From positions 32,001 through 96,000 of IMG/VR virus record IMGVR_UViG_3300034062_004313: DNA of 64,000 nucleotides; one strand, given 5' to 3'. A program made the position numbers and the translations under genes. Source of the DNA: a virus. The notes under the pieces are model-generated. The model saw only the letters and a list, made by a program, of their open reading frames with translations. It was not told the DNA's origin and ran no database searches. Position 1 is the first letter of the stretch, and every line of letters starts with the position of its first letter. Below, piece by piece: positions 273 through 51,319 of this stretch.

Positions 273-1307
273 TCGAATAGTTTTCCTTGTTTTTTATTTT
301 GAAAATTTAATTGTTCTCCATCCATAAGCATAATTTCATCCTTAACTATAGATAAATGCACCAATGCACTAAATACTTGTTCATATAAAAGAGAAGACGG
401 GATAGCTTTCCCGTCTAAGTCTTCTTCAAGTTCTTTCTTATATGCTTTTAATGCTGGTTCTGCTTTCTTTATTAATATTCTTAAACTTTGTTCTACTTCT
501 TTTTTTAATTTCATATTAAATCTTTTATATCAAATCCATCTGTAAAATATTCTACACCGCTATATTTACCAGAAGCTGTAATAATAAAATCACCATCTTT
601 ATAAAACCTTATGATATTATATACTATCTGGTCTTCTGGTTCAAGAAATAGATTTTTATTTTCTTTATACCATTCTTCATCAAGGAATGCCCAATCAAAA
701 TCTCCTTCTATAAAGTCTTGTAATTCTTCTTCTACATCAAAAAATTCTACACCAAAGTTTGCAAAATATTCTAGAGAAAAGAAATCATCTTTAATATTAT
801 CTATTGTTTCTTTACATCTAAGAAGAAAATCTTTATTAACATAGAATATACAAACATCTATATTTAAAAATTCATCATTATTAAATGCTTTTGCTATTAC
901 TATTCCTGTGTTTTCTTTACTAAATTTCATTTATTTTTAAATTTTTAACAATTATTTCATTCTCAAATGCATATGGAATTATACTCGTTATCTTCCATAT
1001 TTTCATCAAACTCTTTTTTAAGTTTTAAGTATTGTTCATATCTCTCTTTCTTACTTTCTTCTCTTTTATTTTTCCAGAATAGTTCTCTTTCTTCTATTTC
1101 TTCTGGAGTTTCTTCTATATCTCTATATACTGCTATAAAAGTATTTTCATTATCATCAAATCTATTAGGATGCTCTACTACAATATAATCAGTTGATAGT
1201 AAATCTACTTCAAATTTAGACACTCGAATTTTATCATAATGTCCATCTAACTCTTTTTCAAAAATGCACTTGTTAATAATCATATTTATTCTTTCTTTTA
1301 AACCAAC

Positions 1308-36600: not shown

Positions 36601-37256
36601 GAATAAACATAATAACGCTCAAGAAAGTCATTATAATAAAAAGGTTTTAATTCCATAATAATATTGTTTCATAATGGTAAAACTTTAATTTTATCCCATT
36701 CATCAATGATAACTGGTCTTAGTAAAGGGTGCAATGCTCTCATATATTTTAAATGAGGAGGTGTTATTAATTCTTCTGGAGTTGGTTGAGTTTCCCACCT
36801 TTTAATTTCTTCTAAAGAAGCAGGTGTTATGTTCTCTTTTACCATACGTTTAAGTGTATGATATCCAGTACATTGTTTATCTTCTGATAAACGAGGTTCG
36901 TAAAGCCCATCACAATATTTGTGACAGAATTCATTAAATGTTTTCGGTTTCATTGTAATGTTTTGAGATTTTTAATACATTTATGAAACATTCCATAGCT
37001 TCTATGTTATTTTGATTAAAATTTTCATAGGATTTAATAACTTGTTGTTTGTCATTTATTAAAACCAAGTCACTAATATTTTCCCCTTTAACTACAAAAA
37101 CCATGTGATTTTCAAGCTTTGGTAAATTAACTTTTTGTTGATTCTCCAAAATCATTTTGAAATAAGGGTCAACATACCACATAGTCACTCCATTATTAAA
37201 ATCTGGTTTTGTATTTTCGAAATCTATAAGTTTCCACATAACGTAGTTTTATGAAA

Positions 37257-37298
37257 GAACAGGTACTAAGTCATAAGACTGTTCCCCGTTCCACCAAT
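37257..37298 (-). ncRNA. loop-E/bulged-G hairpin, copy A
   Basis: GGAACGGG-GAAC-AGUC-UUAU-GACU-UAGUA-CCUGUUCU; covaries with copy B. Confidence 0.65.
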
Positions 37299-37751
37299 GA
37301 TTTAAAATAATATTAATAATACGGTTATCATACCTATTAAAACCTTTACAACATCTTGTTCTGTAAAGACTTTTAATAATTTTCCTGTCGGTGATACAAA
37401 ATAGGTCATAAATAATTATTTATAAATAAATAAAAACATCCATGCTCCTAATAGTAATAACCAAGGAGATAATATAGTTATAATTGATTTTTCATACTTA
37501 TTTCTATATTCATCTTTAATATCAGTAATATAACTATGTACAAAACAATGTACAAAAAACGCTATACCAGTATATTGATACCAAGTTAATTTTGGAAAAT
37601 CAGGAAATATTGGTAATATATACCAATCTGCAATAATAGTTGTTACATAACCCCATGAAAATGCTCCGTATATTACAAATACGAAAACAATAAAAGCTGC
37701 CGCTATAAATTTTAATAAGTCTTTCATAAAAATTAATTGAAGGTGGAAAAT

Positions 37752-37820
37752 ATGCCACGTTTTTAGTACCACAAAACAGTGCTTAAAAGTGTAACCTTTT
37801 GGTGGGTTGGTTACTACCCC
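37752..37820 (-). ncRNA. pseudoknot RNA motif, copy 1
   Basis: GGGU-A-GUAACC-A-ACCC-ACCAAAA-GGUUAC-ACUUUUAAG plus a downstream hairpin; covarying copy at 48359..48429. Confidence 0.7.
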
Positions 37821-39314
37821 AAGAATTAATAGCTATTTCTTTTTTAAAGCATTTTTAATTTGCTCTAAAGTATAGCATCTTATACCATTAATCCAGAAAT
37901 ACATATGTTTTATTTTATTGTACCCAAACGGAAGTCATATTTGGCTCAATATCACAAGCAAGCTTTCTGAAATATTCAAGATTAAACTTACCATTAGGAT
38001 AAGTGTTCTTTGCAGTTTGTTGCACTTGCACTTTTCGTAGAAGGGAATGCTTATTATTAGCATTGCCATAGATAAATAGTGTTACCATAACATTTGTTTT
38101 ATTGATGAAAAATTATTTAAATAACCAAATAAAAGGAATATGACGCAAATTATACACACTAAAAGAATCAGATTTTCTAGCTTTCCAAATATATCCTATA
38201 ATATCTATAACTGTTAAAAGGATAATAATTAAACCAATTGATATGTTCATAATTATTTAATTAAAATAGGACACCACATGGGAATTTGAATTTTACTTTC
38301 TTCATGCCACTCTACAGCACCTTGTATTTTTTTATTTTCTTTGGTACATATCCAATCATCCATTCTATCCCAACCATCTGTACTATATCGATTAGCTGTT
38401 TCAAAATATGGACATTGTTTGCATGATTTAACTTCTATTGATATTTTAGCCATAAAATTGATTTTATTGATTAATTAATTTATGGTCTTCATAATAACCA
38501 TTACCACTAAGTATTCTTTCGAAGAGTTCTTTATTAGGTTCTGGTAGTTGTATAAGGGTGATATATTCTTCAGTACCTTCAGGTTTTGTTTTAATCTCCA
38601 TATTTGAGAGTACACTCTTGTATTCCCAAATTAATGCTTCAATAGGACTTAGATTTTCAGGTTTACCTATTTGCCATACAATTTCTCTATGAAGATTTTC
38701 CATGAAATGTTGTAATCTATCAGGTAGACATATATTCATAATTTCGAACATGTCATTAGCAACATAGATTAATGTATCATTGGTTGCTAATTCATAATCC
38801 CATCCACAACGTATAGCCCATATTCTTTTTAAACCTTCAAAGAAATTTACATCATTAGGTCTTTTATACCATCCCTTACAGTACAGAACTATATGTCCTT
38901 GTATTGGTTCCAATAATATTGGTTTCATAAAAATTTTTAAAGATTTTGCTCAATCCAATTCTCTCTTACTGTATAATGACAATCGGGTTTACTTTGTCCA
39001 TGTATCCATGCCTGTGTCATAAGATTATGTACTTCTTTTTTAGTATACATTTTATCAGAAGATTTATTCAATTCTTCAACAATATGTTCCTTAGCTTTAT
39101 TAAGATAATATGCTCTTTCATGATATTCAAATATACCATCATCCTTTGGATAAGCAGCATAAACAGTATTACCAAAACATTCTGCTCTAAAGTAACCATG
39201 TCTAAGTCTTAAATAACCAACTTCCATATCATTAAGAAATACATCGTATTGTTCAGGACAGGCTCCACATGTTTGAACTAGTTCTAATTCATTTGTTGTT
39301 ATCATAAAATTGTT

Positions 39315-40022
39315 TTAAAGATTCTCTTTACAAAACTCAATTACTTCATATTCAGGAGTATATCCTTTCGATTGCATAGCATTACGAATAAGATTTATTA
39401 CTTCTTCTCTTGTCCAACTATCTTTAATTGGTCTTATAGTAATGGTATTATCCTTAGCTACTTTAAGTATGTGATAAATATCTTTATGCGCCCAATATCT
39501 TATCCATATTTTACCTATAGGTGGAGTTATATCAAAATTTCTTTCTCCTGTTTGTTCACAATACCAATGCTCTTCAAAAGTTTTTTCTTCATATTCAACC
39601 ATCACTTCTTTTATTATATTACTTTTATTATATTCAGTAATATATTTTTCAATGAATGATTTAGATGGTTGTGGTAAATGGTCATAATGTGGACTATTCA
39701 TTTGCATTGGATGAATATTCAGAATATCTGTTGTAGCTATTACTTTTTTAGCTAATCCACTTAATCTTCTTGATTCTGATATTCTGTTGTTAGAATTAAA
39801 TAGTTCAAAAGAACCATCTGTCCAACACATAATATAAGGTAATATTTCACCATCTTTTATTGGTTCATCACTAAGGAAATAAAGATGTTGATGAGTCCAT
39901 GAACCATCAGGAACTTTTTCTTTCCAAATAGGTCGGTCTCCTATATAAAACAGCCTCGAACCTTTTGCAATAACTCCTTCTTTTTCTGTAGGTAAAAGAA
40001 TAACCTTTGTTTGTTTTAACAT
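39315..40022 (-). CDS. modular hypothetical protein, paralog of 28283..29173
   Basis: LLPTEK, QHLYFLSDEPIKDG, KKVIATTD, SFIEKYI, WTREEV. Confidence 0.65.
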   Translation of the reverse strand: MLKQTKVILLPTEKEGVIAKGSRLFYIGDRPIWKEKVPDGSWTHQHLYFLSDEPIKDGEILPYIMCWTDGSFELFNSNNRISESRRLSGLAKKVIATTDILNIHPMQMNSPHYDHLPQPSKSFIEKYITEYNKSNIIKEVMVEYEEKTFEEHWYCEQTGERNFDITPPIGKIWIRYWAHKDIYHILKVAKDNTITIRPIKDSWTREEVINLIRNAMQSKGYTPEYEVIEFCKENL

Positions 40023-40047
40023 AACATAGTTTTTAGTTTTAACAATA

Positions 40048-40518
40048 TTGAAGATTTATCAAATCTCCTGCACAATGTTGTCAGAGGTGAATCCTTGATG
40101 TAAAAGGAGAACTGCTACTTAAAGCTTCATTCACAATTACCACATAACAACTACTTATTTATATTGCTACAAATAAGGCATATTTCTTATAGCTGATTAG
40201 ATTTATCATTATTCATGGCCACATGGGTAGCGTGGTAGGTAGGTATCCCTGTATTCAGTCAGATATTATTCCCCCTTGTTGTCTAATACTTCATATCGCG
40301 TTTAGCTTATGCTGCCACTCTAAACTTTCGTTTAGCCCTTTCGGGACATTCTGTACTTAGATTATATACTCCAATCATCCTCCGGTCCTAACAGTTATAT
40401 CTAGTATAACATACATTAGCGGGATAGTATTTTCCAGAATGCTTTATATTCTCTACCAAATAACTTGCAAGATAGAACTACGAATTTGCAACTTCTGTTA
40501 TTTGTATTTATTTGGTAT
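40048..40518 (-). ncRNA. candidate large structured ncRNA (~470 nt)
   Basis: No long ORF; raised GC; three GNRA hairpins that read correctly only on the minus strand; long-range stems. Confidence 0.65.
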
Positions 40519-40521
40519 GAA

Positions 40522-40665
40522 TTAATTAATTAAATGAGGACCATCTGTTATAGTTCTGGTTCCTCCTTCTGATATCATACTTATAGCCTCCCTTAAACTT
40601 TGGGCTATAACTGTACAAGTGATTTGTTCACCATTTGTACTAATAACTTGCGCTGTGTATTTCAT
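40522..40665 (-). CDS. 47-aa small protein (MKYTAQVISTNGEQITCTV...)
   Basis: Manual translation; AT-rich leader before the ATG. Confidence 0.55.
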   Translation of the reverse strand: MKYTAQVISTNGEQITCTVIAQSLREAISMISEGGTRTITDGPHLIN

Positions 40666-40680
40666 AAAATAGATTAAAAA

Positions 40681-40721
40681 GATAGAAGGTGCTCACTCAT
40701 TGAGCTTTCCCTTCCACCAAA
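40681..40721 (-). ncRNA. loop-E-like hairpin, divergent copy C
   Basis: GGUGGAAGG-GAAA-GCUC-AAU-GAGU-GAGCA-CCUUCUAUC with the same UUGGURGAA 5' flank. Confidence 0.45.
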
Positions 40722-41008
40722 TTATTTAATTATTCCAATGTGATATTTACAACAAAAATATAAAAAGATTTATCATTAGTAATCATTTGCAGACCAAGCA
40801 TAATCAGACCATTCGTCTCCGCTTGTTCCTTGTGGTTTTAATGAAGGAGATTCGATGTTTGTTTTTCTTTTCTTAACTTGTACTTTATACTTACTTGCTT
40901 CCTTGCTATGACAAATCATAAATTTACCATTATTCTTATCAGCAAAATTTCTTGCTTTTTGTTCATTATGAAATCTGATTGTTACTGTTCCCATATTATA
41001 AATGTTTA

Positions 41009-41051
41009 AGAACAAGTACTAAGTATTACTACCGTTCCCTGTTCTACCAAT
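41009..41051 (-). ncRNA. loop-E/bulged-G hairpin, copy B
   Basis: AGAACAGG-GAAC-GGUA-GUAA-UACU-UAGUA-CUUGUUCU. Confidence 0.65.
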
Positions 41052-42551
41052 TATTTACATCCAAAATCTTCTGCATCATATTCAGCTTCTAAATCATCCA
41101 TATCATCATTAAACAAATTAGCCATATCTCCAGCTAATTCAATATTATGTGAGCATGATTTAGGAAGTCTTTTTGTTTGAAGAATAATCATTTTGAGCGT
41201 ATTTCTTAAATGTTCTATAGACATTTCATCTATGTCAATAGATTTACCATTTTTCATTGTCCAATATACTGTCATAATGTTACCCATTTATGTTGTTCAT
41301 TCTCATATTCTTTAATCTCACTTATCCATTCACCATATACAGTATCAGGTTCCCAAACCACTTTATCACCCAATAATTCTTTTAACCATACCATAGGTAC
41401 AGCTACAGAGATTTGGTCTAATGCTATCTCATATATATCCACATTAAACACTTTATTAACAGCAGTGGAGTTTGAACTCCATTCACCACCATGACCCGGA
41501 CGATGTTTTACATTATGTGTAAGAAAACCAAATGTATGAACTGGTATTCCTTCAGGATGTTCATATTTTGTTAATCTATAAATACCACCATCTTCATCTT
41601 TAGTAATAGTTTCTTTATTATCCAACCATTTAGGATTTAAAGAATTATTACCATCACCAGAATACAAATATATATTCCAATGTTGATTAAAATAACAGAA
41701 TTTTATTTGCATATGAATTATTTAATTATTCTAAAATATTTTTCCAACAAGTTTCTCTCCAATCAGGCCAAGTTTCTTCACATTCAGGTTGATGGTCTTC
41801 TAATGTAGAACCAAAAAAACCATTTTTCCAAGCATTGCTGACTAATTTATCAGCTTCACTTTGTTTTTGAACGTGATAAACTTGCCATACCAGTCCACCT
41901 TCATGATTTCGTATCATTAAGGTTTTTGGATAAATGTTATCATTTGTTATGTCTGTGTACATAAAATAAGTTTTAAAGTGATTGTGATTTTTTCTTGTAA
42001 CATTTCATAGCATAGTTATAAAACTCAATATCCGAATCAGCAACAACTAAACCACAAAATCTTCTACCATTACTCCATCTAAAGAATGTGCAGGGTTTAT
42101 CAAAGCATATACATGAATATATACCATCTCCTAATTTATCAGATAACCAACGTTCATCTATTTCTTCAGGGGTTAATTCTGATTTCAATAAAGAAAATAT
42201 GTCATATCCATTCTTTTCTTCTAATTCACCATGAAGATAACACCATGATGCTCTTACAACATCTTCGTATTTAGCACCACGATATTCACCATCAATATTT
42301 TCTGGTATTATTGTTAATGTTCTCATAATTTTTTAGCTTTTCTTTTTGCATTACGCTCATTAATAGCCCACACTTCAACACCATCAATTTTGAATTTCTT
42401 TAAACCATTAGGTATAATATCCTTTGGTTGTGGTTCAGGTGCTGGGCGATGTTTTGGTTTTTCTCCTGCAAACACTTGTTCAGCACCAAACATAGCAGAC
42501 ATCATATATAATCCTAAGAGTGATTTCATTGATTTCATAAAATTAGTTTAA

Positions 42552-42591
42552 GAGCTTAGGTTCAAGGTATTTCTACCTCTCCCCTAAACTC
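42552..42591 (-). promoter_or_regulatory. intergenic hairpin with purine-rich 4x4 internal loop and GAAA tetraloop
   Basis: GAGUUUAGG-GGAG-AGGUA-GAAA-UACCU-UGAA-CCUAAGCUC. Confidence 0.5.
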
Positions 42592-42597
42592 AAGATT

Positions 42598-43263
42598 TTA
42601 AATAATATTAATATCATACATTCTTTGAAAGCCTGTAGGCATTATCATACGATAAGCTCCATTTGTTTCAATTACATCTCCAACACAGGTTGACCTTATA
42701 CCAAGAGCTTCATATTCAAGACTAAAGTCATTTTGTGCTTTTTTGAAAGCATCATCTAAAGAATTAGCATATACATTAGCCACTTCTTTGAACCGAATAT
42801 CTAATTGACAAAATGTATTTAATTCTGAATTTGCAGGATGATATACACGATACTTTTGAAGTGATGTTATAGGTTCTTTTTCATCATACACTCTTTCATC
42901 TTCATAATTATCCATTTCTTCATCTAACATGTCCTGAAATAAATCATCTAAGCTTTCATCTACATCATCATAATATTCACTTAACATATTCCCTTCAATG
43001 CACATTTCCACTTCATCAAGAATAAAGTCAATGAAATGATATGTAAAAGAACTATCTTTAAGCTCTTTAAGAAAGTTGTAATGTTTCTGGAATTTCTCAA
43101 CATCTTCTTCATGTGTACTTGAATTAAAGCACATGTTCTGAATTGTCACCTGTACTGAAACCAACAAATGACTAATAGCTCCATTTGCTTCTCTATAAGC
43201 AGAAATAATAGGAATAAGCTTATTAAGAGTGTTCTTAATAGCTTGTAATGTTTCTTTTTTCAT
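42598..43263 (-). CDS. hypothetical protein with C-terminal YodL-like domain
   Basis: LDDAFKKAQN...RSTCVGDVI (RSxSVGDV motif). Confidence 0.5.
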   Translation of the reverse strand: MKKETLQAIKNTLNKLIPIISAYREANGAISHLLVSVQVTIQNMCFNSSTHEEDVEKFQKHYNFLKELKDSSFTYHFIDFILDEVEMCIEGNMLSEYYDDVDESLDDLFQDMLDEEMDNYEDERVYDEKEPITSLQKYRVYHPANSELNTFCQLDIRFKEVANVYANSLDDAFKKAQNDFSLEYEALGIRSTCVGDVIETNGAYRMIMPTGFQRMYDINII

Positions 43264-43294
43264 AAGTTTTATTTGAGTTTAATAAAAGATTATA

Positions 43295-43326
43295 TTTGGA
43301 ATATTGAGTTTATTTATGTATATTTG
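43295..43326 (+). promoter_or_regulatory. Bacteroidota primary-sigma promoter for 43344..43949
   Basis: Exact TTTG-N20-TATATTTG. Confidence 0.75.
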
Positions 43327-43343
43327 TATAAATTAAACTCAAT

Positions 43344-43949
43344 ATGATATATTTTATAGGAAACAAAGAACAAGATATAGTTAAGATAGGAAAAACTAAA
43401 AATGTTGAAAATAGACTTTGGGAAATAAATACTCACTGTCCTTATAAATGTGAGTTATTCTTAACTATAGATGGAAAAGAAGCTATTGAAAAAACAATAC
43501 ATGAAATGTTTAATCAATTTAAAATGAACGGTGAATGGTTTCAATTTTCAACTGAAATTCAAGATTTTATAAATAATCCAAAAGAAATAGTATTAAATCC
43601 TTTGTTTAAAGATTTTAATATAAATACTTCATATTATAATAATGAAGACTTAAAAATCGTTGAAGATTTATACAAATTGAAAAAATCCAATATTGAAATC
43701 TCTGAAATAACAGGATTAACTATACATCAAGTTAGAAGAATTATAAGAAATAATCAACTTGCTAGAAAATATAGAGAATATAAAGGAACAACTATTGTTA
43801 GTTCAGAACAAGACTTTCAAAGAAATAAGCGTAAAAAGTATAGAACTCTTTATAAAAAAGGGATAATTACTAAAGAAGTATTATTAGAAGAACTTGCAAA
43901 ATATCCAACTAAACGTAATTGTCCCAAAAATACAATTGAATATACCTAA
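43344..43949 (+). CDS. T5orf172/GIY-YIG-like nuclease with C-terminal HTH (putative free-standing homing endonuclease)
   Basis: MIYFI, VKIGKT, RL..I, EKTIH, GEWF; HTH SNIEISEITGLTIHQVRRII; lone plus-strand gene in a minus-strand region. Confidence 0.8.
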   Translation: MIYFIGNKEQDIVKIGKTKNVENRLWEINTHCPYKCELFLTIDGKEAIEKTIHEMFNQFKMNGEWFQFSTEIQDFINNPKEIVLNPLFKDFNINTSYYNNEDLKIVEDLYKLKKSNIEISEITGLTIHQVRRIIRNNQLARKYREYKGTTIVSSEQDFQRNKRKKYRTLYKKGIITKEVLLEELAKYPTKRNCPKNTIEYT

Positions 43950-43952
43950 ACC

Positions 43953-44040
43953 TAATAAATAGAGAGTAATGTCAAGCAATGAACAAAAGTTCGGCAACGC
44001 TTTTCATAAGTATAAACTAACATTACTCTCTATTTATCAG
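43953..44040. repeat. long inverted repeat between convergent genes
   Basis: ataaatagagagtaatgt ... acattactctctatttat (18-bp perfect arms). Confidence 0.8.
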
Positions 44041-44066
44041 ACCTAATCCTATTACGGATTATGCAC

Positions 44067-44360
44067 TCAATCTTTAAAATAATCTTTTACTAAATCTCTA
44101 CCTGAATAATCTTGTCTTGAACAAGCATCATCTAAAATGTCATTTGGGCAATTTTCACAAAGCTTAGAAACAAGCTCCATATTCTTGTTACACAAATCTG
44201 ACCACAATACATACAAGTTTGTTCCCTTTAAAGAAGGAACCTGTTCCAACTTAATAGCAATTGGAATACTGTATTTTAAGTTTTCAGGAGAGAACAATTC
44301 CATAAGAAATGTCATTGCAACTGGATTTCCTTTTGCATAATTCATAATCATACCAATCAT
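44067..44360 (-). CDS. conserved phage hypothetical protein (likely start at 44360)
   Basis: YAKGNPVAMTFL...LKGTNLYVLWSDLC; the ORF-track extension to 44402 overlaps the ribozyme. Confidence 0.7.
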   Translation of the reverse strand: MIGMIMNYAKGNPVAMTFLMELFSPENLKYSIPIAIKLEQVPSLKGTNLYVLWSDLCNKNMELVSKLCENCPNDILDDACSRQDYSGRDLVKDYFKD

Positions 44361-44374
44361 AATAATAATTTTTG

Positions 44375-44443
44375 AGTTTGACATCATTAATGTTTCGTCC
44401 AAGTCTGGTCACAAACTGATTTTATACTCTTCTTGGCTGAGTT
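44375..44443 (-). ncRNA. hammerhead ribozyme, type I, G3:C8 variant with kissing loop
   Basis: AGUUU-GUGACCA-G(ACUUGGA)C-GAAAC-AUU AAU GAU-GUC^AAACU; upstream ACUC(AGCCAAGAA)GAGU loop is complementary to loop II. Confidence 0.7.
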
Positions 44444-44557
44444 TATAGTCTTGTCTAATGGAACATTAAAGACTTAAACAAGGCTGCTAATCCATCAATA
44501 ATATATGCATTACTGTCATAGTTATTAATATAGCACTTACAGCACCTTGTTGATTAA

Positions 44558-44794
44558 CTAAAGACCTAAATAATCCAATTGTTCTTGAGTAACTCCTGTT
44601 GCTTTAGCATATTCAGCTAAAGTTATTTCTTCACAAGAAATGATAGGACATGTCTCTACAATAGGAAATTCATCTTCTGCAATTGGGTCATAATACCAAT
44701 CTATATTAACATCAATAGATGTTAAATTAGGTGTAGTAGAATAATGAATAAAAGGCATTCCATGCTCTTCATGTATATATTTAAAGAATTGCAT
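44558..44794 (-). CDS. small acidic hypothetical protein (likely start MQFFKY)
   Basis: ORF track; start reassigned because the upstream part is structured RNA. Confidence 0.6.
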   Translation of the reverse strand: MQFFKYIHEEHGMPFIHYSTTPNLTSIDVNIDWYYDPIAEDEFPIVETCPIISCEEITLAEYAKATGVTQEQLDYLGL

Positions 44795-44903
44795 AATAAG
44801 TGTGATGCTGATTAGACAACATCGATTTATTAACAAATTAATAAAATTCTCTAACCTTATTACAGGAATTACAGAGAATACCATTACGGATGTGGAATGA
44901 CAA

Positions 44904-44981
44904 CTATTGCCAATCCCACTCTTGCAGTCCTTCTAAGGTGGTTACACCAATAGAAGTAATAATCAAAGCAGTATGTTTCAT
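44904..44981 (-). CDS. possible 25-aa peptide MKHTALIITSIGVTTLEGLQEWDWQ
   Basis: A-rich leader (AAUAAAAGC-AUG); stop codon in the loop of a hairpin. Confidence 0.3.
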   Translation of the reverse strand: MKHTALIITSIGVTTLEGLQEWDWQ

Positions 44982-45037
44982 GCTTTTATTATTTAGTAAT
45001 GAAGAAATCTCCCTGTTAACGTACAGAGAATAAAACG

Positions 45038-45256
45038 TTATTTACCTTTGAAGTCTTCATCAAAACTACTATCAAATAAACATCCTAATGCAACACATAT
45101 TACTATTGTTCCCAACACACAATAAGCAGGATGTTGAGCCACTTCTCTGAAGCTGCCACCAAATAATCATGCAATAGCAGGAACAATCGAATACAAGAAA
45201 CAGTAGCATATAACGTATACCACTGTAAGAACCATAAAACGGATTAACTTTTCCAT
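45038..45256 (-). pseudogene. 72-codon two-TM membrane protein ORF interrupted by one in-frame TGA (45167-45169)
   Basis: MEKLIRFMVLTVVYVICYCFLYSIVPAIA*LFGGSFREVAQHPAYCVLGTIVICVALGCLFDSSFDEDFKGK. Confidence 0.55.
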
Positions 45257-45343
45257 AACAGATAAATATTTAAAGAATGAATAAACATAGAAAAGCATAT
45301 ACACAAGTCCTTGACAGGAGAGTGTATATGCCCTGTGAATAAA

Positions 45344-45733
45344 TTACAACGGAAACTTAAACTTAAACCAACCAAAGGACTTAGCTCTAATAAAACATTG
45401 AGCTATACTAATATGTTCACAAGATTCATCTCTGAAACCTGTAATATGATTATCAACACCTTGTTCAGGTTTTATAGTAGTATAACCAACTTTTCGAACA
45501 TATCCACCACCATGTTTCTGTTCTACAATAAATGTAGTACCAACAGGAGATGTGAGAATATTAAAGAGATTCTTACTCTGAAAAGAATAAGTGTGGTCTT
45601 TAACATAATCAGAATTACTTAAAGAACGCTCTTCAATAGGACAATTATAATCTACATGAATAGAATAATACTTATCAATAACCTTATTGGCTTGATTAGC
45701 ACTAAGCTGAATACAGGAAATGAACTTTTCCAT
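45344..45733 (-). CDS. hypothetical protein (likely start MEKFISC)
   Basis: ORF track; A-rich leader directly after the hammerhead. Confidence 0.65.
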   Translation of the reverse strand: MEKFISCIQLSANQANKVIDKYYSIHVDYNCPIEERSLSNSDYVKDHTYSFQSKNLFNILTSPVGTTFIVEQKHGGGYVRKVGYTTIKPEQGVDNHITGFRDESCEHISIAQCFIRAKSFGWFKFKFPL

Positions 45734-45752
45734 TTTAAATATTTTATTGTTT

Positions 45753-45808
45753 TCTGTTTCGATGCTCAATTACATCATCATCAGCAAAGAGAATACTCTT
45801 TGGACAGA
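45753..45808 (-). ncRNA. hammerhead ribozyme, type III
   Basis: UCUGUC^CAAAGAG-UAUU-CUCUUUG-CUGAUGA-U-GAUG-UAAUUGAG-CAUC-GAAA-CAGA; all three stems pair. Confidence 0.88.
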
Positions 45809-45921
45809 TTAGCATATACTGCGGTTTCAACATGGGAATATGATGTCAAAATGATATTGTTTTGATATCAAATGAGTGATTCTATACCCTATTTGTACTC
45901 ATGTCAGTGCAAATTTGTACT

Positions 45922-45937
45922 TGTTTCACGTGGAACA
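45922..45937. promoter_or_regulatory. parS-like site (ParB/Spo0J binding)
   Basis: TGTTTCACGTGGAACA, 15/16 to the palindromic consensus TGTTTCACGTGAAACA; intergenic. Confidence 0.75.
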
Positions 45938-46023
45938 TTATATAATATCTACATGTATTAATACACTATTTATTAGATATTATCTAATTCAATTTAAAAT
46001 ATGCCGAGAAAATACAAAACCAA

Positions 46024-46068
46024 TTTGATATTATTCAACAATTGTTCATATTATTGAATAATATCAAA
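46024..46068. repeat. perfect 15-bp inverted repeat
   Basis: tttgatattattcaa-N15-ttgaataatatcaaa. Confidence 0.85.
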
Positions 46069-46104
46069 ATTAAGCTCTTTTTATGGGTGGATTTGGGCTG
46101 ATTT

Positions 46105-46134
46105 AAAAAAGGACAGGGATAAATATCCCCGTCC
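46105..46134 (-). terminator. intrinsic terminator after 46158..46670
   Basis: GGACGGGGAU-AUUU-AUCCCUGUCC-UUUUUU. Confidence 0.85.
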
Positions 46135-46157
46135 GTTATTCTTCAATCATCATCCCA

Positions 46158-46670
46158 TTAAGGAGTCGGAACTGCATTCTCCTGCAATTCAGCAGTGGCA
46201 GTCACTTTCTTTTCCTTCTTTTCAGGAGTTACACCAGCCAAAGCTTGTGTCAAAGCAGTGATACCGGCAAGGTATTGGTCAGCCCTTTGCTTTTGAAGGT
46301 TACGTCCACGGCCTTTAAATGGGACATTTGTCAGCCACACATTAGGTGAGCGTGTCATTTTGCCAGCAGAATCGAACTGTGGTTTTGCCACATCGAACTT
46401 CATAGCACCTTCATACTTGCCTGTGGCATCATCATAACCCTTCAGGAATTCTTCAAATTCATCTTCACTGATGCGTACTTCTGTACTTTTTACCGGAATC
46501 CTTACGCCTGTAGGAGAAATATAATTCTCACTTGTAGCTTCCACCTCTTCACTGAGGATAAGAATTACGGTGTCTGCATTTACACCTGATTGAGTGTCAA
46601 TAGTTTCCACTTCAATTGTGGTCTTCCTCATACGGGACAAACCTGCTAATAGCTCATGTTTAATAGCCAT
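46158..46670 (-). CDS. hypothetical protein, GC-enriched, probably early/highly expressed
   Basis: 170-aa ORF flanked by terminators on both sides. Confidence 0.75.
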   Translation of the reverse strand: MAIKHELLAGLSRMRKTTIEVETIDTQSGVNADTVILILSEEVEATSENYISPTGVRIPVKSTEVRISEDEFEEFLKGYDDATGKYEGAMKFDVAKPQFDSAGKMTRSPNVWLTNVPFKGRGRNLQKQRADQYLAGITALTQALAGVTPEKKEKKVTATAELQENAVPTP

Positions 46671-46741
46671 AATGTTTACTTTTTGTTTAATTAATAAAAA
46701 ATCTATGTATCATCTAATATGTAGCCTTGCTTGTTTGGTTT

Positions 46742-46780
46742 AAAAAAATAACACAAACCCGCAAAGAGCTTGTGTTATTT
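46742..46780 (-). terminator. intrinsic terminator after 46808..47215
   Basis: AAAUAACACAAGCUC-UUUGC-GGGUUUGUGUUAUUU-UUUU. Confidence 0.75.
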
Positions 46781-47603
46781 GTAAGTGAATACATTAGTGT
46801 TGTAGTATTATCTGTTTTCTAAATTGGCTTCAATTTCTTTTTTAAACTCAACTTTATCCAATTCCATCTGAATCCTGTCTTCTGGAGTTATTACACCATC
46901 AAATATATCTGGATATTTACGGCAGATTCTTTGAGCAACCTTCCCATCAATCATCATTTTTAACCATTTCTGGTAATTGGATTCAAAACCAAGAATGATG
47001 TAAACATACCCTTTGATATCCTTTCTGAATGGGTCAGGTCTGTTATAATGGTCATCAAGATTGAGATAATTCATTTTAACATCATAATTCTTGAGCCTTA
47101 TTTCAACTCCTTGAACATAGCAGTCAGAAACTTCATCAAAGAAGAATACATTATCAATTACTTCTTTGTTCTGGAATATGAGCTTCATAAACTCATTTAA
47201 TGCATAACTAGTCATAATATAACAAGGATAGTAAGATATCAGCTTTTATTTTATAACCAACGATAATATTGAGTGTTCCCATTCATTCCAAAGTACTGAT
47301 TATCAGTAGTGTGTTCAGCTTTTACACCAAATGCAATCCAAGTTCTGTAATAGTCATCATCAGACATATTAAGAGACTTCTTTACACTGATATCAAATCC
47401 CATAAGCTTATTTATCATGGTTTGATAGTTAAACTCTGAAACATATACTTCTTTTGGAAAATTAGGATGATGTTCAGTATTAACATCAATAGTCAATTTG
47501 ATACATTCCTTTTTAGGTTCAAAATACTTGCTTTCTGTTGTGTACAGCATAAAAGATAATTTGTGGGAGAGAGTTCATCACCCTCTCCCGATTAGAAAAT
47601 GGG

Positions 47604-48299
47604 TTACTTAACAGCATAAGGATTAAAATCACCAAATACTTCCTTGTACTTTGCATCAGAAAGAATACCATGAGCTTTACGAGCTTCATTCTTGAGAGCA
47701 TTCTCTGCAACACCAAGAATCTGTAAACTCCTGCGTGAAATGGCTACAACCTTCACATGTTCAGCAAGCCAAACAGTACCATCCCAATTCTTCTTAGCCT
47801 GATAAGCATCAATCATACACTTATCAAGACTCAGTTCAATTGCCTTTGTTTGTTCACCACCAGCAGTTTCACAATCCAAATCCAACTCTGTAGCACTAAC
47901 CAAATCACTCTGAGCAATCTCAAGAGGAATCTTGATAGTATCCACAGTGACAGAGAACTTCTCGGATATTTTCTTCCCCTGAACATTCATCCTTATCTGG
48001 TAAGTGCTATCAATGGTGATAGGTTCGAACAGCTTGAAGATGATGTTCACCTTCTTTTCACCATCAGGCTTTGTGTTATGCAACTCTCCCACCTTAGCAA
48101 AATCACCAGCAAGCACAGCTTCTGCAAGCTCCTTAGTGTGAGCAGCCTTGTCCTTACCAAGTTCATAGACTTCTTGGTCATAGAACCAACCCTTGTAGGA
48201 ACGACCAAATGTTCCGTTATCATGGTCAATGCTAGACTTAGCACTTACATTTTCCAGAGCAGTCTGGAAGCTTTTCAAATTCAAAAGACTCGTTTTCAT
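47604..48299 (-). CDS. hypothetical protein, GC-enriched, probably early
   Basis: 231-aa ORF, preceded by pseudoknot copy 2 and followed by a GGGAGAG/CUCUCCC hairpin. Confidence 0.75.
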   Translation of the reverse strand: MKTSLLNLKSFQTALENVSAKSSIDHDNGTFGRSYKGWFYDQEVYELGKDKAAHTKELAEAVLAGDFAKVGELHNTKPDGEKKVNIIFKLFEPITIDSTYQIRMNVQGKKISEKFSVTVDTIKIPLEIAQSDLVSATELDLDCETAGGEQTKAIELSLDKCMIDAYQAKKNWDGTVWLAEHVKVVAISRRSLQILGVAENALKNEARKAHGILSDAKYKEVFGDFNPYAVK

Positions 48300-48358
48300 A
48301 AAATTGATTGAAGAATGATTCCCTTATTCTTTATTCTCTACTTGGGATTGAAAGAGAT

Positions 48359-48429
48359 AACAGCATTTCTTTAGTCCTTAGAATAGCTGTCCTAAAACTG
48401 TCACCTTTTGGCAGGTTGATGACTACCTC
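48359..48429 (-). ncRNA. pseudoknot RNA motif, copy 2
   Basis: AGGU-A-GUCAUC-A-ACCU-GCCAAAA-GGUGAC-AGUUUUAGG plus an ACAGC...GCUGU hairpin. Confidence 0.7.
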
Positions 48430-48933
48430 TAATTAAGAAGATTAATGTAATTTCAACTGTTTTGCAGAGAAATATACCCCTTCTTGTTTAACAACATCCC
48501 AATAAATGAGATGATTTAGACAATTAGTAGTCCAAATTTGGGTATTGAACTGACCGTAGTCAGATACTCCACCTCTTTCATGGAGTATTTTAGAATCATT
48601 ACTAACTCTTGCAGATTTAACTGCATTACCTGTCAATGTTCCAAAGAACGTTGTTCTAATTGTCATAATATGTCGTTGCCTGAATAGACAGGTTCAACTG
48701 ACCCTTATTGTGATGGATATAAACATATTATTTTGACTTTTCTTTGTAATACAATTTTTACATTATTAATAGAATGAACATAGGGGTAGACCCGGTTTCA
48801 CTTTCTTAACAAGGCATCATTTATCTTACTGTTCTCCAGCTTCACACATAAAACTGATAGGGGGTGTACACACACTTCTTATGTATTCCTATATGTTAAC
48901 ACCTTCTTAAAAAAATTATAAAAAATAGAAAAA

Positions 48934-48965
48934 TTTGGAGTTATTAACTTTTTAAGTTATTTTTG
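48934..48965 (+). promoter_or_regulatory. Bacteroidota primary-sigma promoter at the strand switch, near-leaderless transcript
   Basis: TTTG-N20-TATTTTTG, ending 4 nt before the ATG at 48970. Confidence 0.7.
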
Positions 48966-48969
48966 TCCC

Positions 48970-49587
48970 ATGTCTCAATTAAATGCCAACACTCCTTATA
49001 TATATTGTTATATAAGGAAAGAAATTACGGGATTAGAGAATGATATGGAGGGGTATATCTTTGGAGTGAAGTCTCAATTGAATTATCCTCTCCTTTTTCA
49101 TTTTCAGTCTTCTATAGGAGCTATATTTTGGAATATTCCTATAAGTGGTTTTGTGCATAATTTGGAATATGAAGATTTGGATTTATCTATTCTCGAAACT
49201 TGGGATTGCCAAAGTAATGCTATATCTGTTTTATGTTTTAAGTTTCTTCAGCATAAGAGAGTGGATGTATTTTGTAGAGATGGTATATGGAGGAGTGGAA
49301 TTTATCACTTCACTATAGATGATTACGAAACGGATGTTAATGAAATAAATGTGGGTTATTCTCAAGATATGGATAGTAAGTGTTTTCACTTTATAGAACT
49401 TGATAATGGAAGATTTTGTGTGCATCCTAATAATATATTACGTTGGCATAATGCTGATTTTATTCATCCCTACGATAAAGAAAACCCTCCAAAAATAAAG
49501 TTGAATAATCCCAGAGTTAGTTCTGAAGATGTAGATTTATCATTTGCTAAAAGTGCTTATTATTTAAAATATGAAAGAACCAAATAG
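48970..49587 (+). CDS. conserved phage hypothetical protein
   Basis: LNANTP, LLFH, IPISGF, WDCQS, IELDNGRFCVHPNN. Confidence 0.7.
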   Translation: MSQLNANTPYIYCYIRKEITGLENDMEGYIFGVKSQLNYPLLFHFQSSIGAIFWNIPISGFVHNLEYEDLDLSILETWDCQSNAISVLCFKFLQHKRVDVFCRDGIWRSGIYHFTIDDYETDVNEINVGYSQDMDSKCFHFIELDNGRFCVHPNNILRWHNADFIHPYDKENPPKIKLNNPRVSSEDVDLSFAKSAYYLKYERTK

Positions 49588-51319
49588 AGTACGTAAGAAT
49601 CCTATACAATATAATATACAGTTAGATGAAGAGCAAAAGGCTGGTAAAGCTATAATTCTTCAATATCCTATTACATTAATTACTGGTCAGGCTGGATGTT
49701 TAGGATTAGACACAGAAGTATTAATGTATAATGGAACTTTTAAAAAAGTTCAAGATATTGTTGTAGGTGACCAATTAATGGGACCAGATTCTAAGCCTAG
49801 AAATGTATTATCTTTATGTAGAGGCATAGACCAAATGTATTGGATTAGACAAAATAGAGGAATTGATTATAGAGTTAATAGTAATCATATACTATCATTA
49901 ATAAGAGTTCAAACTGCAAAATATCCAAGAATTGCAGTTGATGGTGTAAGAAAACAAGATTTTTCAAGACCTCCTATTCATCCTAAAAAGGAAACAGTTA
50001 CAAATATAGAAGTTAATAGATATTTTGATTTGGGTTCTAAAAAACAATATATGGGATATATTTCAAATTGTCTTTTCTTTGAAGAAAAGAATTTATCAAT
50101 TGACCCATATTATTTAGGACTTTGGTTAGGAGATGGAAGTAAAAATTGTATAAGAGAAATTACAGCAGCAGATTCTGAAATAATAAATTATTTAATTGAC
50201 AAAGGAGCAAGAGCTAAATTAAATAGTAAATATGCATGGTTATTACCAATAAATTTAGAAACAGTTGAGTCTTTTAAAGATTTATTTTCAATTACAAATT
50301 CTTCAAAATTACCTGAAAAATTTATACCTAATGATTATTTGTTTAACTCAAAAGAAAATAGATTAAAATTGTTAGCTGGTTTATTAGATAGTGATGGACA
50401 TTATATAAAAGATGGAAAATATTATGAAATAATAGTAAAAAATAAAAGATTAGCAGATAATATAACATTTCTATGTAGAAGTCTTGGTTATAAAACTAAT
50501 CAAAGAGACAAGAAAGCTAGTATGAAAAGAGATGATGGTACTATATATAAATGTATTGTTCAAAGAATATCTATAATGACAGAAGATATTATACCTGTTA
50601 TTATAGATAGAAAAAAGAATGAAATTGGTTCTGATTTTAAAAATAGAAAATACACAGGATTCAAAATAGAAAAAGATATTATTGATAATTACTATGGGTT
50701 TACACTTGATGAAGATAATCTTTTTTTATTAAAGGACTTAACCGTTACTCATAATTCAGGTAAAAGTTTAGTTGCTCTACAGACTGGATTGGATTTTGTT
50801 AATAGTAAGATGGGTAAGATGGTATTAACACGTTCTTTAGTAGAGGTTGGAGATGAATCAATGGGTTATTTACCCGGAGATGCTAAAGAAAAGTTAAGTC
50901 CTTATTTAGAAGCAGCAATGGAGAATCTTGAGAAATGTATGTCAAGACAAGAGATTTTAAAGCTTGTTAATGATAATAGGATTGTTGCTGGTCCTGTAAA
51001 CTTCATGAGAGGTAAGACTGTAGAGGATGTGCTTATTGTAGAAGAGGGACAAAATCTTACTATAGGACAGATGTTAGCAGTTTTAACAAGAACTGGTAAG
51101 GAGGGTAAGATTATTATTACTGGTGACTTGGCTCAAAAGGATAGAAGAAAGGAAAGAAGTTATGGAGCATTGGACTTAGCAATTGATTTAGCTAAGGACT
51201 TACCTGAATATATAGGATGGGTAAAACTTAATGGTCAGCATAGACATGATGTGGTTAGTAAGATAAATGACTTAATTTATTCTGATAAATATAAAAATAG
51301 GGTATTCCCTGAAAACTAA
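49571..51319 (+). CDS. phoH: PhoH-family ATPase containing an intein
   Basis: Spliced P-loop GQAG|SGKS, LTRS, MGYLPG, FMRG, EEGQN, LTRTG, ITGDLAQKD, HRHDVV. Confidence 0.9.
   Translation: MKEPNRVRKNPIQYNIQLDEEQKAGKAIILQYPITLITGQAGCLGLDTEVLMYNGTFKKVQDIVVGDQLMGPDSKPRNVLSLCRGIDQMYWIRQNRGIDYRVNSNHILSLIRVQTAKYPRIAVDGVRKQDFSRPPIHPKKETVTNIEVNRYFDLGSKKQYMGYISNCLFFEEKNLSIDPYYLGLWLGDGSKNCIREITAADSEIINYLIDKGARAKLNSKYAWLLPINLETVESFKDLFSITNSSKLPEKFIPNDYLFNSKENRLKLLAGLLDSDGHYIKDGKYYEIIVKNKRLADNITFLCRSLGYKTNQRDKKASMKRDDGTIYKCIVQRISIMTEDIIPVIIDRKKNEIGSDFKNRKYTGFKIEKDIIDNYYGFTLDEDNLFLLKDLTVTHNSGKSLVALQTGLDFVNSKMGKMVLTRSLVEVGDESMGYLPGDAKEKLSPYLEAAMENLEKCMSRQEILKLVNDNRIVAGPVNFMRGKTVEDVLIVEEGQNLTIGQMLAVLTRTGKEGKIIITGDLAQKDRRKERSYGALDLAIDLAKDLPEYIGWVKLNGQHRHDVVSKINDLIYSDKYKNRVFPEN
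49697..50755 (+). mobile_element. 353-aa intein with LAGLIDADG homing endonuclease
   Basis: Starts CLGLDTEV and ends VTHN before Ser; LAGLIDADG-like motifs YYLGLWLGDG and LLAGLLDSDG. Confidence 0.92.

What the first reader, a model, noticed from the sequence alone, without database searches (positions are those of the whole stretch)
37752..48429. Unassigned pseudoknot RNA motif in two covarying copies 10.6 kb apart
Seen: copy 1 (37752-37820) is GGGU A GUAACC A ACCC ACCAAAA GGUUAC ACUUUUAAG. Copy 2 (48359-48429) is AGGU A GUCAUC A ACCU GCCAAAA GGUGAC AGUUUUAGG. Both stems show compensatory changes (G-C to A-U in S1, A-U to C-G in S2). Loop lengths are identical (1/1/7), and CCAAAA and UUUUA are invariant, so AAAA/UUUU pairing could make it a kissing-hairpin fold instead. 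Each copy is followed by a hairpin carrying GG(U)ACUAAA, starts about 13 nt after a stop codon and precedes a new gene. Inference: a functional element. Options are a new self-cleaving ribozyme (given the neighbours), a nuclease block, a translational operator, or a mimic of type III toxin-antitoxin ToxI pseudoknots, whose topology is similar.
Basis: partly seen in the sequence, partly recalled or inferred. Interest (0 to 1): 0.78.

Follow-up and report, generated by a model that had tools for sequence, protein, structure and literature searches.

The report
Rare pseudoknot-plus-hairpin RNA module in phage
Two gaps between genes of an uncultured 156-kb freshwater phage carry the same small folded RNA, a 29-base pseudoknot followed by a hairpin; one unrelated metagenomic contig carries it too with compensating base changes, so it is a real RNA element matching no Rfam family, and its job is still unknown.

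Summary
The motif lies on the minus (coding) strand. Copy 1 has its pseudoknot at 37791-37819 and its hairpin at 37756-37781. Copy 2 has them at 48400-48428 and 48360-48390. Pattern, descriptor and covariance-model searches find exactly two copies in the 155,874-bp genome.

Rfam 15 has no match. Eight IMG/VR pattern scans found no further copy, and one GTDB scan gave only chance matches. One scan of 241 million metagenome records gave a single true third member, L043. It keeps all 10 pseudoknot pairs. It adds a third Watson-Crick type at one S2 pair (A-U, C-G, U-A) and a G.U at the S1 closing pair. It has the same 9-nt hairpin loop (AAGGACUAA) on an unrelated stem. Its flanking proteins are unrelated to the phage's.

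The G.U pairs fit only the sense strand, so the structure is an RNA feature. The function is unresolved. My best guess (about 0.3) is an intercistronic mRNA processing and 5'-stabilising module. Rivals are a factor-binding site (antitermination or translation), a new ribozyme, an RNase P site or tRNA-end mimic, and a riboswitch. The ToxI-mimic and AAAA/UUUU kissing readings are disfavoured.

This scan has noted other phage leader pseudoknots on other DNA, but none with this sequence.

The parts
37791..37819 (-). Copy 1 H-type pseudoknot: S1 GGGU/ACCC, L1 A, S2 GUAACC/GGUUAC, junction A, L3 ACCAAAA
   Evidence: Read directly. Pattern and covariance-model hits. All 10 pairs standard.
37782..37790 (-). 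Copy 1 linker ACUUUUAAG
   Evidence: Partly conserved as A-[CG]-UU-(UU)-A-[AG]-(G).
37756..37781 (-). Copy 1 hairpin: CAC(U)GUUUU / AAAACGUG with 9-nt loop GUGGUACUA
   Evidence: ViennaRNA fold, -2.9 kcal/mol.
37820..37832 (-). 13-nt A/U-rich spacer between stop TAG (37833-37835) and the knot
   Evidence: Shares GCUAUUA..U...UGG with L043 by eye.
48400..48428 (-). Copy 2 pseudoknot: S1 AGGU/ACCU, L1 A, S2 GUCAUC/GGUGAC (one U.G), junction A, L3 GCCAAAA
48391..48399 (-). Copy 2 linker AGUUUUAGG
48360..48390 (-). Copy 2 hairpin: ACAGC-UA-UUCU / AGAA-AU-GCUGU with 9-nt loop AAGGACUAA
   Evidence: ViennaRNA fold, -7.0 kcal/mol.
48429..48441 (-). 13-nt A/U-rich spacer between stop TAA (48442-48444) and the knot
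37416..37727 (-). Gene after copy 1: 103-aa membrane protein. The ATG lies 92 nt after the knot start.
   Evidence: ORF list. phrog_2169 membrane protein, E 6.6e-6. A 103-aa gene is called on a strain contig.
47604..48299 (-). Gene after copy 2: 231-aa orphan protein. The ATG lies 129 nt after the knot start.
   Evidence: No family and no homologue beyond its own strain.
48442..48666 (-). 74-aa ORF before copy 2. It is the first gene of the leftward block, next to the divergent gap 48667-48969.
37833..37904 (-). 23-aa ORF before copy 1 (coding status uncertain)

Best explanation
The element is a transcribed, sense-strand RNA module of about 65-70 nt. It consists of a compact H-type pseudoknot, a short U-rich linker and a hairpin that presents a conserved 9-nt loop.

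I think it most likely works as an intercistronic mRNA processing and stabilising module. In this model the polycistronic leftward transcript is cut in the A/U-rich single-stranded stretch just 5' of the knot by a host endonuclease. The knot and hairpin then form a protected 5' end for the downstream message. Expression and lifetime of the genes behind it are thereby uncoupled from the gene in front.

Shown: the fold, its strand, its copy number, its intergenic position, and its independence from flanking gene identity.

Inferred: that it is cut or protected at all, and which enzyme is involved.
For: The structure is real and at RNA level.
- All 10 pairs are kept in 3 members.
- One S2 pair has three Watson-Crick types and the S1 closing pair has G-C, A-U and G.U.
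- The G.U pairs would be A.C mismatches on the other strand.
- Nucleotide changes do not follow a coding pattern: 4 of 6 are non-synonymous in the only shared frame (read).

Position fits an intercistronic element.
- The module always lies in an unusually long gap between co-directional genes of a tightly packed operon, on the sense strand.
- Its distance to the next ATG varies: 92, 129 and 137 nt.
- The flanking genes are unrelated.
- An A/U-rich unpaired stretch with UUAAU/UUAAA precedes the knot in all three.

RNA processing elements are nearby.
- The same operon holds a near-threshold RAGATH-1 hammerhead at 44375-44443 (52.5 bits, E 1.8e-7).
- In L043 the module directly follows a tRNA T-arm-like hairpin (GGGUUCGAUUCCC).

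The knot geometry, S2 of 6 bp with a 1-nt L1, is that of the compact CPK-1 scaffold (PMC3835772).
Against: - There are no transcript-end data of any kind, and no RNA run could be listed.
- There are only three members, and S1 is 4 bp with a single covarying pair.
- Most stem bases and both loops are invariant. That looks more like specific recognition by a partner, or a catalytic or ligand-binding core, than like a generic roadblock.
- The 13-nt distance from the stop codon is not kept in L043, where it is 67 nt.
- The host and its RNases are unknown.
- Nested-fold energies are not better than shuffles (z +0.8 and -1.1). That program cannot model pseudoknots.
Confidence: 0.3

Rival explanations
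1. It is a recognition site on the nascent or mature mRNA for a trans-acting factor. One form is processive antitermination in the style of lambda nut or HK022 put. The other is a translational operator in the style of T4 gene 32 or regA.
For: - The layout is bipartite: a sequence-conserved element plus a hairpin with a conserved loop on a free-varying stem.
- There are two copies per genome, one just after the first gene of the leftward block.
- An intrinsic-terminator-like hairpin lies downstream at 46111-46134.
- 23 of 29 knot positions are invariant, which suggests sequence-specific recognition.
- The knot geometry resembles the gene 32 operator knot (PMC535899; PMC3835772).
Against: - No candidate binding protein was found, and the flanking proteins share no significant similarity.
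- Both copies lie in the same transcription direction 10.6 kb apart, not one per operon.
- The knot is 92-137 nt from the start codon with a structured hairpin between, not an unstructured UUAAA tract.
- The downstream genes are not SSB-like.
Confidence: 0.2
2. It is a new class of small self-cleaving ribozyme.
For: - It has a small pseudoknotted core with many invariant loop and junction bases and a peripheral hairpin of free sequence, as in pistol or twister.
- It lies in a phage operon that also holds a hammerhead-like element.
Against: - It matches no ribozyme model in Rfam even at E<=10.
- No cleavage site can be inferred.
- From general knowledge, most conserved motifs found near ribozymes are not self-cleaving.
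Confidence: 0.1
3. It mimics a tRNA acceptor end. It would then be either an RNase P cleavage site or a decoy for an enzyme or defence toxin that reads tRNA 3' ends. The ToxI-type antitoxin mimic belongs with this group.
For: - The 3' strand of S1 is followed in all three members by N-CCA, with N being A, G or U. This resembles a discriminator base plus CCA.
- S1 stacked on S2 gives a helix of about 10-11 bp.
- Bacterial RNase P cuts H-type pseudoknots that carry an RCCA (PMC12710915).
- T-arm-like hairpins sit next to the L043 copy.
Against: - The CCA is inside L3 and runs on into S2, so it is not a free 3' end.
- The base before S1 is an invariant G, not the usual U.
- None of the phage's 19 tRNA genes encodes CCA.
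- For ToxI: no tandem array, no ToxN gene and no similar array in GTDB genomes.
Confidence: 0.1
4. It is a riboswitch aptamer, a small pseudoknot of preQ1-I size, with the hairpin as part of a switch.
For: - It has a roughly 30-nt H-type knot with an A-rich L3 and conserved junction adenines.
- The knot's UAGUN can alternatively pair with the hairpin loop's N'ACUA, as A-U, C-G and U.G in the three members (read).
Against: - Pattern matches are absent from 185,579 bacterial species genomes, and only one further copy exists in metagenomes.
- The downstream genes are unrelated to each other.
- No terminator or start-site sequestration is linked to the fold.
- There is no Rfam riboswitch hit.
Confidence: 0.07
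5. It is a DNA-level site (protein operator, origin or primosome signal) or a conserved sequence without structural function.
For: - Sequence identity is high.
- Small A/T palindromes sit just upstream: AATAGCTATT in copy 1 and AATAGC-N6-GCTATT in L043.
Against: - Five of six variable positions between the copies, and all free positions in L043, preserve interleaved pairing.
- The G.U pairs are strand-specific.
- The hairpin stems covary completely.
Confidence: 0.08

Closest known systems
[quoted passage not shown]
   Same: - It is a phage intercistronic leader with a compact H-type knot of about 28-29 nt.
- S2 is 6-7 bp and is crossed by a single-nucleotide L1.
- From memory of Du, Giedroc and Hoffman 1996, a 7-nt loop crosses S1.
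- The knot lies at the 5' end of the leader, well upstream of the start codon.
   Different: - There is no sequence similarity.
- An extra A lies between the stems.
- The knot is followed by a structured hairpin with a conserved loop, not by an unstructured UUAAA/UAAA tract.
- The downstream genes are a membrane protein and an orphan, not an SSB.
- It occurs twice in the genome.
Lambda nutL/nutR and HK022 putL/putR antitermination RNAs
   Same: - There are two sense-strand copies per phage genome in early transcripts.
- One lies just after the first gene.
- The module combines conserved sequence with a hairpin whose loop is conserved.
- It is independent of the neighbouring gene.
   Different: - There is no boxA/boxB or put similarity and no N-like protein.
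- Both copies lie in one direction.
- The host is probably a Bacteroidota member, where no such system is described.
ToxI, the type III antitoxin RNA
   Same: It is an H-type pseudoknot unit of about 36 nt that begins AGGU...ACCU (from memory). Phage-borne mimics of ToxI are known.
   Different: - ToxI works as a tandem array next to toxN.
- Here there are two single units 10.6 kb apart, no ToxN-family gene, no Rfam hit and no matching bacterial array.
preQ1-I riboswitch aptamer
   Same: It is of similar size and has H-type topology with an A-rich third loop.
   Different: - There is no match to the Rfam model.
- S2 is 6 bp rather than 3-4.
- It is absent from bacterial genomes.
- There is no queuosine gene context.
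Coremin / xrRNA-C exonuclease-resistant motif of plant and fungal RNA viruses (PMC10520033)
   Same: It has two structured elements joined by a short conserved spacer. The L043 linker GUUAA resembles the coremin spacer GUUAAACUAC. A nuclease-blocking role is conceivable.
   Different: - There is no 3-bp hairpin with a YGAD or YGNNAD loop.
- The first element here is a true 10-bp pseudoknot.
- The second hairpin has a conserved loop, whereas coremin hp2 is conserved in structure only.
RNase P pseudoknot substrates and the TYMV tRNA-like structure (PMC12710915)
   Same: It is an H-type knot with a helix end followed by N-CCA.
   Different: The CCA is internal (in L3), there is no T-loop, and there is no 3' terminus.

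Membership tests
Any Rfam 15 family (4227 models) | Covariance-model score at or above the family's gathering score | tested here: not met
   No hit in the window at gathering score. Only noise at E<=10 on 3-kb and 106-nt stretches around both copies.
CPK-1 type pseudoknot | S2 of 6-7 bp crossed by an L1 of 1-2 nt | tested here: met
   S2 is 6 bp and L1 is a single A in all three members. Definition from PMC3835772.
CPK-1 type pseudoknot | No nucleotide between the two stems, giving direct coaxial stacking | tested here: not met
   One invariant A lies between S2's 5' strand and S1's 3' strand.
T4 gene 32-type translational operator | The knot is followed by an unstructured tract of more than 40 nt with UUAAA/UAAA repeats reaching the ribosome-binding site | tested here: not met
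   A stable hairpin follows after 6-9 nt. There are only scattered UAAA, partly inside stems. Operator description from PMC535899.
T4 gene 32-type translational operator | The regulated gene encodes the ssDNA/RNA-binding repressor itself | tested here: not met
   The downstream genes are a phrog_2169 membrane protein and a 231-aa orphan with no Pfam or PHROG match.
ToxI / type III antitoxin | Tandem array of 34-36-nt repeats | tested here: not met
   Model R1 and pattern searches find two single units 10.6 kb apart.
ToxI / type III antitoxin | Adjacent ToxN-family endoribonuclease gene | tested here: inconclusive
   PF13958 has no match in the whole phage genome. The control genomes did not ring either.
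preQ1-I riboswitch | Match to the aptamer model and queuosine-related gene context | tested here: not met
   No Rfam hit. The downstream genes are unrelated.
Known self-cleaving ribozyme classes (hammerhead, twister, twister-sister, pistol, hatchet, HDV-like) | Match to the class model | tested here: not met
   No hit at E<=10 at either copy.
Self-cleaving ribozyme (any, including a new class) | Site-specific self-cleavage | not testable with these tools
   Needs an in vitro transcription and cleavage assay.
nut/put antitermination sites | Modifies RNA polymerase so that it reads through terminators | not testable with these tools
   The only support is positional analogy and a terminator-like hairpin downstream.
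Coremin / xrRNA-C | hp1 with a YGAD or YGNNAD loop, a conserved spacer, and hp2 | tested here: not met
   No such hp1 is present, by reading against the consensus GUCCGAAGACGUUAAACUAC.
RNase P substrate / tRNA-like structure | Helix end followed by single-stranded RCCA, and cleavage at the helix 5' edge | tested here: inconclusive
   N-CCA follows S1 in all three members, but it is internal to L3. Cleavage is not testable here (for the requirement).

The most novel reading that the evidence does not exclude
The knot-plus-hairpin is an autonomous RNA device that punctuates phage polycistronic mRNA. It would be either a new class of small self-cleaving ribozyme, or a pseudoknotted mimic of the tRNA acceptor end that recruits RNase P to cut the message at its 5' edge.
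Probability: 0.15. Interest if true: 0.8.

Novelty: new variant of a known kind. Interest (0 to 1): 0.42.

Why it matters
Phages of Bacteroidota-type hosts, which largely lack Shine-Dalgarno pairing, are abundant. How they control and process their long early transcripts is almost unknown.

This element has a defined fold, strong sequence constraint and clear testable mutations. It could expose a new way of cutting, protecting or reading phage messages.

Its value is limited for now. Only three copies are known, and none is in a cultured phage.

Tried and rejected
Searches for more members:
- Eight IMG/VR pattern scans relaxed different parts of the motif or used flanking and terminase proteins as queries. 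They gave only chance hits.
- The GTDB species-genome scan gave 17 chance hits, none with full pairing.
- blastn against 50,697 phage records found nothing.
- Megablast of the 14-kb region found nothing.
- The 231-aa protein and the L043 108-aa protein have no homologues beyond their own strains.
- Strain variants of the phage (L004-L010, L079-L082) carry identical motifs, so they give no micro-variation.

RNA runs: no RNA holder was listed.

Extra copies in the genome: a loose descriptor search gave no more than chance. A search for stand-alone hairpins with the loop motif found none.

A conserved peptide was rejected. There is no start codon, and copy 2 and L043 have in-frame stops. Four of six changes are non-synonymous.

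Frameshift or readthrough stimulation was rejected. A slippery A-AAA-AAG exists only before copy 1, 19 nt away. Copy 2 has two in-frame stops. L043 is 67 nt from its stop.

A CRISPR-repeat mimic was rejected, because no arrays were found in the GTDB scan.

A duplicated upstream gene was rejected. Local DNA alignment of 300 nt upstream is no better than shuffles, and the protein similarities are insignificant.

The shared start-region block CUUCAAUYAAUUUU(U)AUGAAA of the two copies beats shuffles. It resembles the general start context of this phage's genes (repeat family D5), and L043 lacks it. It is probably not part of the module.

The ESM Atlas search on the 231-aa protein gave scores below 0.9, which is uninformative.


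Full report
WHAT IS THERE

The window is bases 32001-96000 of a 155,874-bp IMG/VR virus record with 26-36% G+C. Its terminase and portal match PHROG families. The terminase is about 24% identical to those of Flavobacterium phage FpV4 and several crAss-like phages. I therefore take it to be a distant crAss-like phage, probably of a Bacteroidota host; this is inference. Near-identical strains occur in several metagenomes (JGI, ENA and Logan records).

Genes from about 48.7 kb leftwards are on the minus strand, and the motif is on that strand too.

- Copy 1: knot 37791-37819, linker 37782-37790, hairpin 37756-37781.
- Copy 2: knot 48400-48428, linker 48391-48399, hairpin 48360-48390.

This includes the two double compensatory changes, the 1/1/7 loop lengths and the 13-nt distance from a stop codon.

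IS IT MORE THAN CHANCE?

- The 28-nt pattern occurs twice, against zero in 100 shuffles.
- The whole genome holds exactly these two copies by pattern and by a loose structural descriptor.
- A covariance model built here scores them at 84.5 and 81.9 bits, with the next best hit under 10 bits.
- Starting from copy 1, six random substitutions keep all ten pairs in about 1% of trials.

A THIRD, INDEPENDENT MEMBER

Eight scans of IMG/VR found no further copy. One scan of GTDB species genomes gave only chance matches. One scan of 241 million metagenome records gave 42 pattern matches.

Across both large scans there were 58 chance matches, and none has all ten pairs. One locus does. This is L043, a 1355-bp contig of 35% G+C. 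Its knot reads GGGU A GUUACC A ACCU UCCAAAA GGUAAC.

- It gives the S2 pair at position 3 a third Watson-Crick type. The three members have A-U, C-G and U-A.
- It turns the S1 closing pair into G.U.
- It puts a third base (U) at the first L3 position.

Six nucleotides after the knot comes a hairpin, GUGGUUU[AAGGACUAA]AAACCAC. Its loop is identical to that of copy 2 and its stem is unrelated. The three hairpin stems share no sequence but all fold with a 9-nt loop.

L043's three ORFs have no detectable similarity to any part of the phage genome. They have no family and no homologues. DNA similarity does not extend beyond the module.

The module is therefore conserved on its own, in unrelated gene contexts. 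Selection acts on the sequence of the knot and loop, and on structure only in the hairpin stem.

STRAND AND LEVEL

The U.G pair in copy 2 and the G.U pair in L043 would be A.C mismatches on the opposite strand. The fold therefore belongs to the sense strand, which means the mRNA.

In the one frame shared by the three copies, four of six variable positions change the amino acid. There is no start codon, and copy 2 and L043 have in-frame stops. A peptide is therefore rejected.

Nested-fold energies are unremarkable, as expected for a program that cannot model pseudoknots. Each stem alone is stable as a hairpin, at -2.2 to -5.5 kcal/mol.

NOT A KNOWN FAMILY

Rfam 15 gives nothing at gathering score. 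It gives only noise at E<=10 on 3-kb and 106-nt stretches around both copies.

The knot's geometry, S2 of 6 bp crossed by a single A, is that of the CPK-1 type, whose founder is the T2/T4 gene 32 operator knot. It differs in having one A between the stems. The T4 operator's unstructured UUAAA tract and SSB gene are absent here.

The ToxI reading fails on three counts. There is no array, no toxin gene (with a silent control) and no model match. The coremin consensus is not met.

HOW IT MIGHT WORK

The facts to explain are these.
- The module is on the sense strand, in long gaps of a tightly packed operon.
- Its distances to the next ATG vary (92, 129 and 137 nt), as do its distances from the previous stop (13, 13 and 67 nt).
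- The neighbouring genes are unrelated.
- There are two copies per genome, one right after the first gene of the leftward block.
- The knot and loop are nearly invariant.
- An A/U-rich unpaired stretch lies just 5' of the knot.

Two context clues point to RNA processing. The same operon holds a RAGATH-1 hammerhead-like element just under Rfam's threshold (52.5 bits against 56.3, E 1.8e-7). In L043 a tRNA T-arm-like hairpin sits directly upstream of the knot.

I therefore favour an intercistronic processing and 5'-stabilising module, at about 0.3. The rivals are:
- a factor-binding site for antitermination or translational control (0.2);
- a new self-cleaving ribozyme (0.1);
- an RNase P site or tRNA-end mimic (0.1);
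- a riboswitch (0.07);
- a DNA-level site or no function (0.08).

The RNase P idea is suggested by the invariant N-CCA that follows S1, and by the RCCA dependence of RNase P on pseudoknot substrates. It is weakened because the CCA is internal and because no phage tRNA gene encodes CCA.

Two possible tertiary or alternative pairings were seen by eye. UAGUN of the knot can pair with N'ACUA of the hairpin loop, as A-U, C-G and U.G. NCC of L3 can pair with GGN' of the loop in two of three members. Three sequences cannot test either.

RELATION TO EARLIER NOTES OF THIS SCAN

Other follow-ups report small pseudoknot leaders on early genes of other phages. None shares sequence with this one. They show the kind is recurrent. 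They are not evidence for the function here.

VERDICT

This is a real RNA family that matches nothing in Rfam, with three known members: two copies in this phage and one on an unrelated metagenomic contig. Its fold is well supported and its function is open. It is a new variant of a known kind, the phage mRNA leader pseudoknot. Interest is moderate.

Noticed in passing
window 44375-44443 (-): RAGATH-1 hammerhead model matches over its full length at 52.5 bits (gathering 56.3), E 1.8e-7. The core reads UGACCAG where the consensus has CUGAUGAG. This is probably a variant hammerhead in the same operon.
   Followed up: partly
window 45753-45808 (-): The second hammerhead proposed in another first-stage note gets no Rfam hit at E<=5.
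   Followed up: partly
window 37255-37304 and 41008-41057: A 50-nt intergenic repeat, 82% identical, lies on the sense strand just after stop codons. It forms a hairpin with GAAC...UAGUAC flanking a small inner stem-loop. Its CUUAGUAC is complementary over 8 nt to the hairpin loop of copy 1 (GGUACUAA). This may be coincidence.
   Followed up: partly
L043 about 533-555 (-) and about 945-1003 (-): Two intergenic hairpins carry a canonical tRNA T-arm (GGGUUCGAUUCCC). The second has an 8-bp acceptor-like stem but no D arm. ARAGORN calls no tRNA.
   Followed up: partly
window 37833-37835 (-): Gene callers on two strain contigs read through this TAG and call a 162-aa ORF that runs across the knot into the membrane-protein gene. 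The 32 codons between TAG and ATG are open and in frame. No suppressor tRNA was found among the 19 phage tRNAs.
   Followed up: partly
window 49571-51319 (+): The PhoH-like ATPase gene carries homing-endonuclease/intein domain hits (Hom_end_hint, Hom_end) in precomputed Pfam data.
   Followed up: no
genome 105720-110999 (outside the window): ARAGORN finds 19 tRNA genes in clusters. None encodes the 3' CCA.
   Followed up: no
window 38186-38193 (-): The only Bacteroidota-type -7 promoter-like box (TATATTTG, with a T-rich -33 region) near either copy lies about 365 nt upstream of copy 1, inside a 45-aa ORF. None is seen between 48430 and 48970 upstream of copy 2.
   Followed up: no
window 46111-46134 (-): A strong intrinsic-terminator-like hairpin (10 bp, 6 G-C, followed by a T run) lies 2.2 kb downstream of copy 2.
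   Followed up: no
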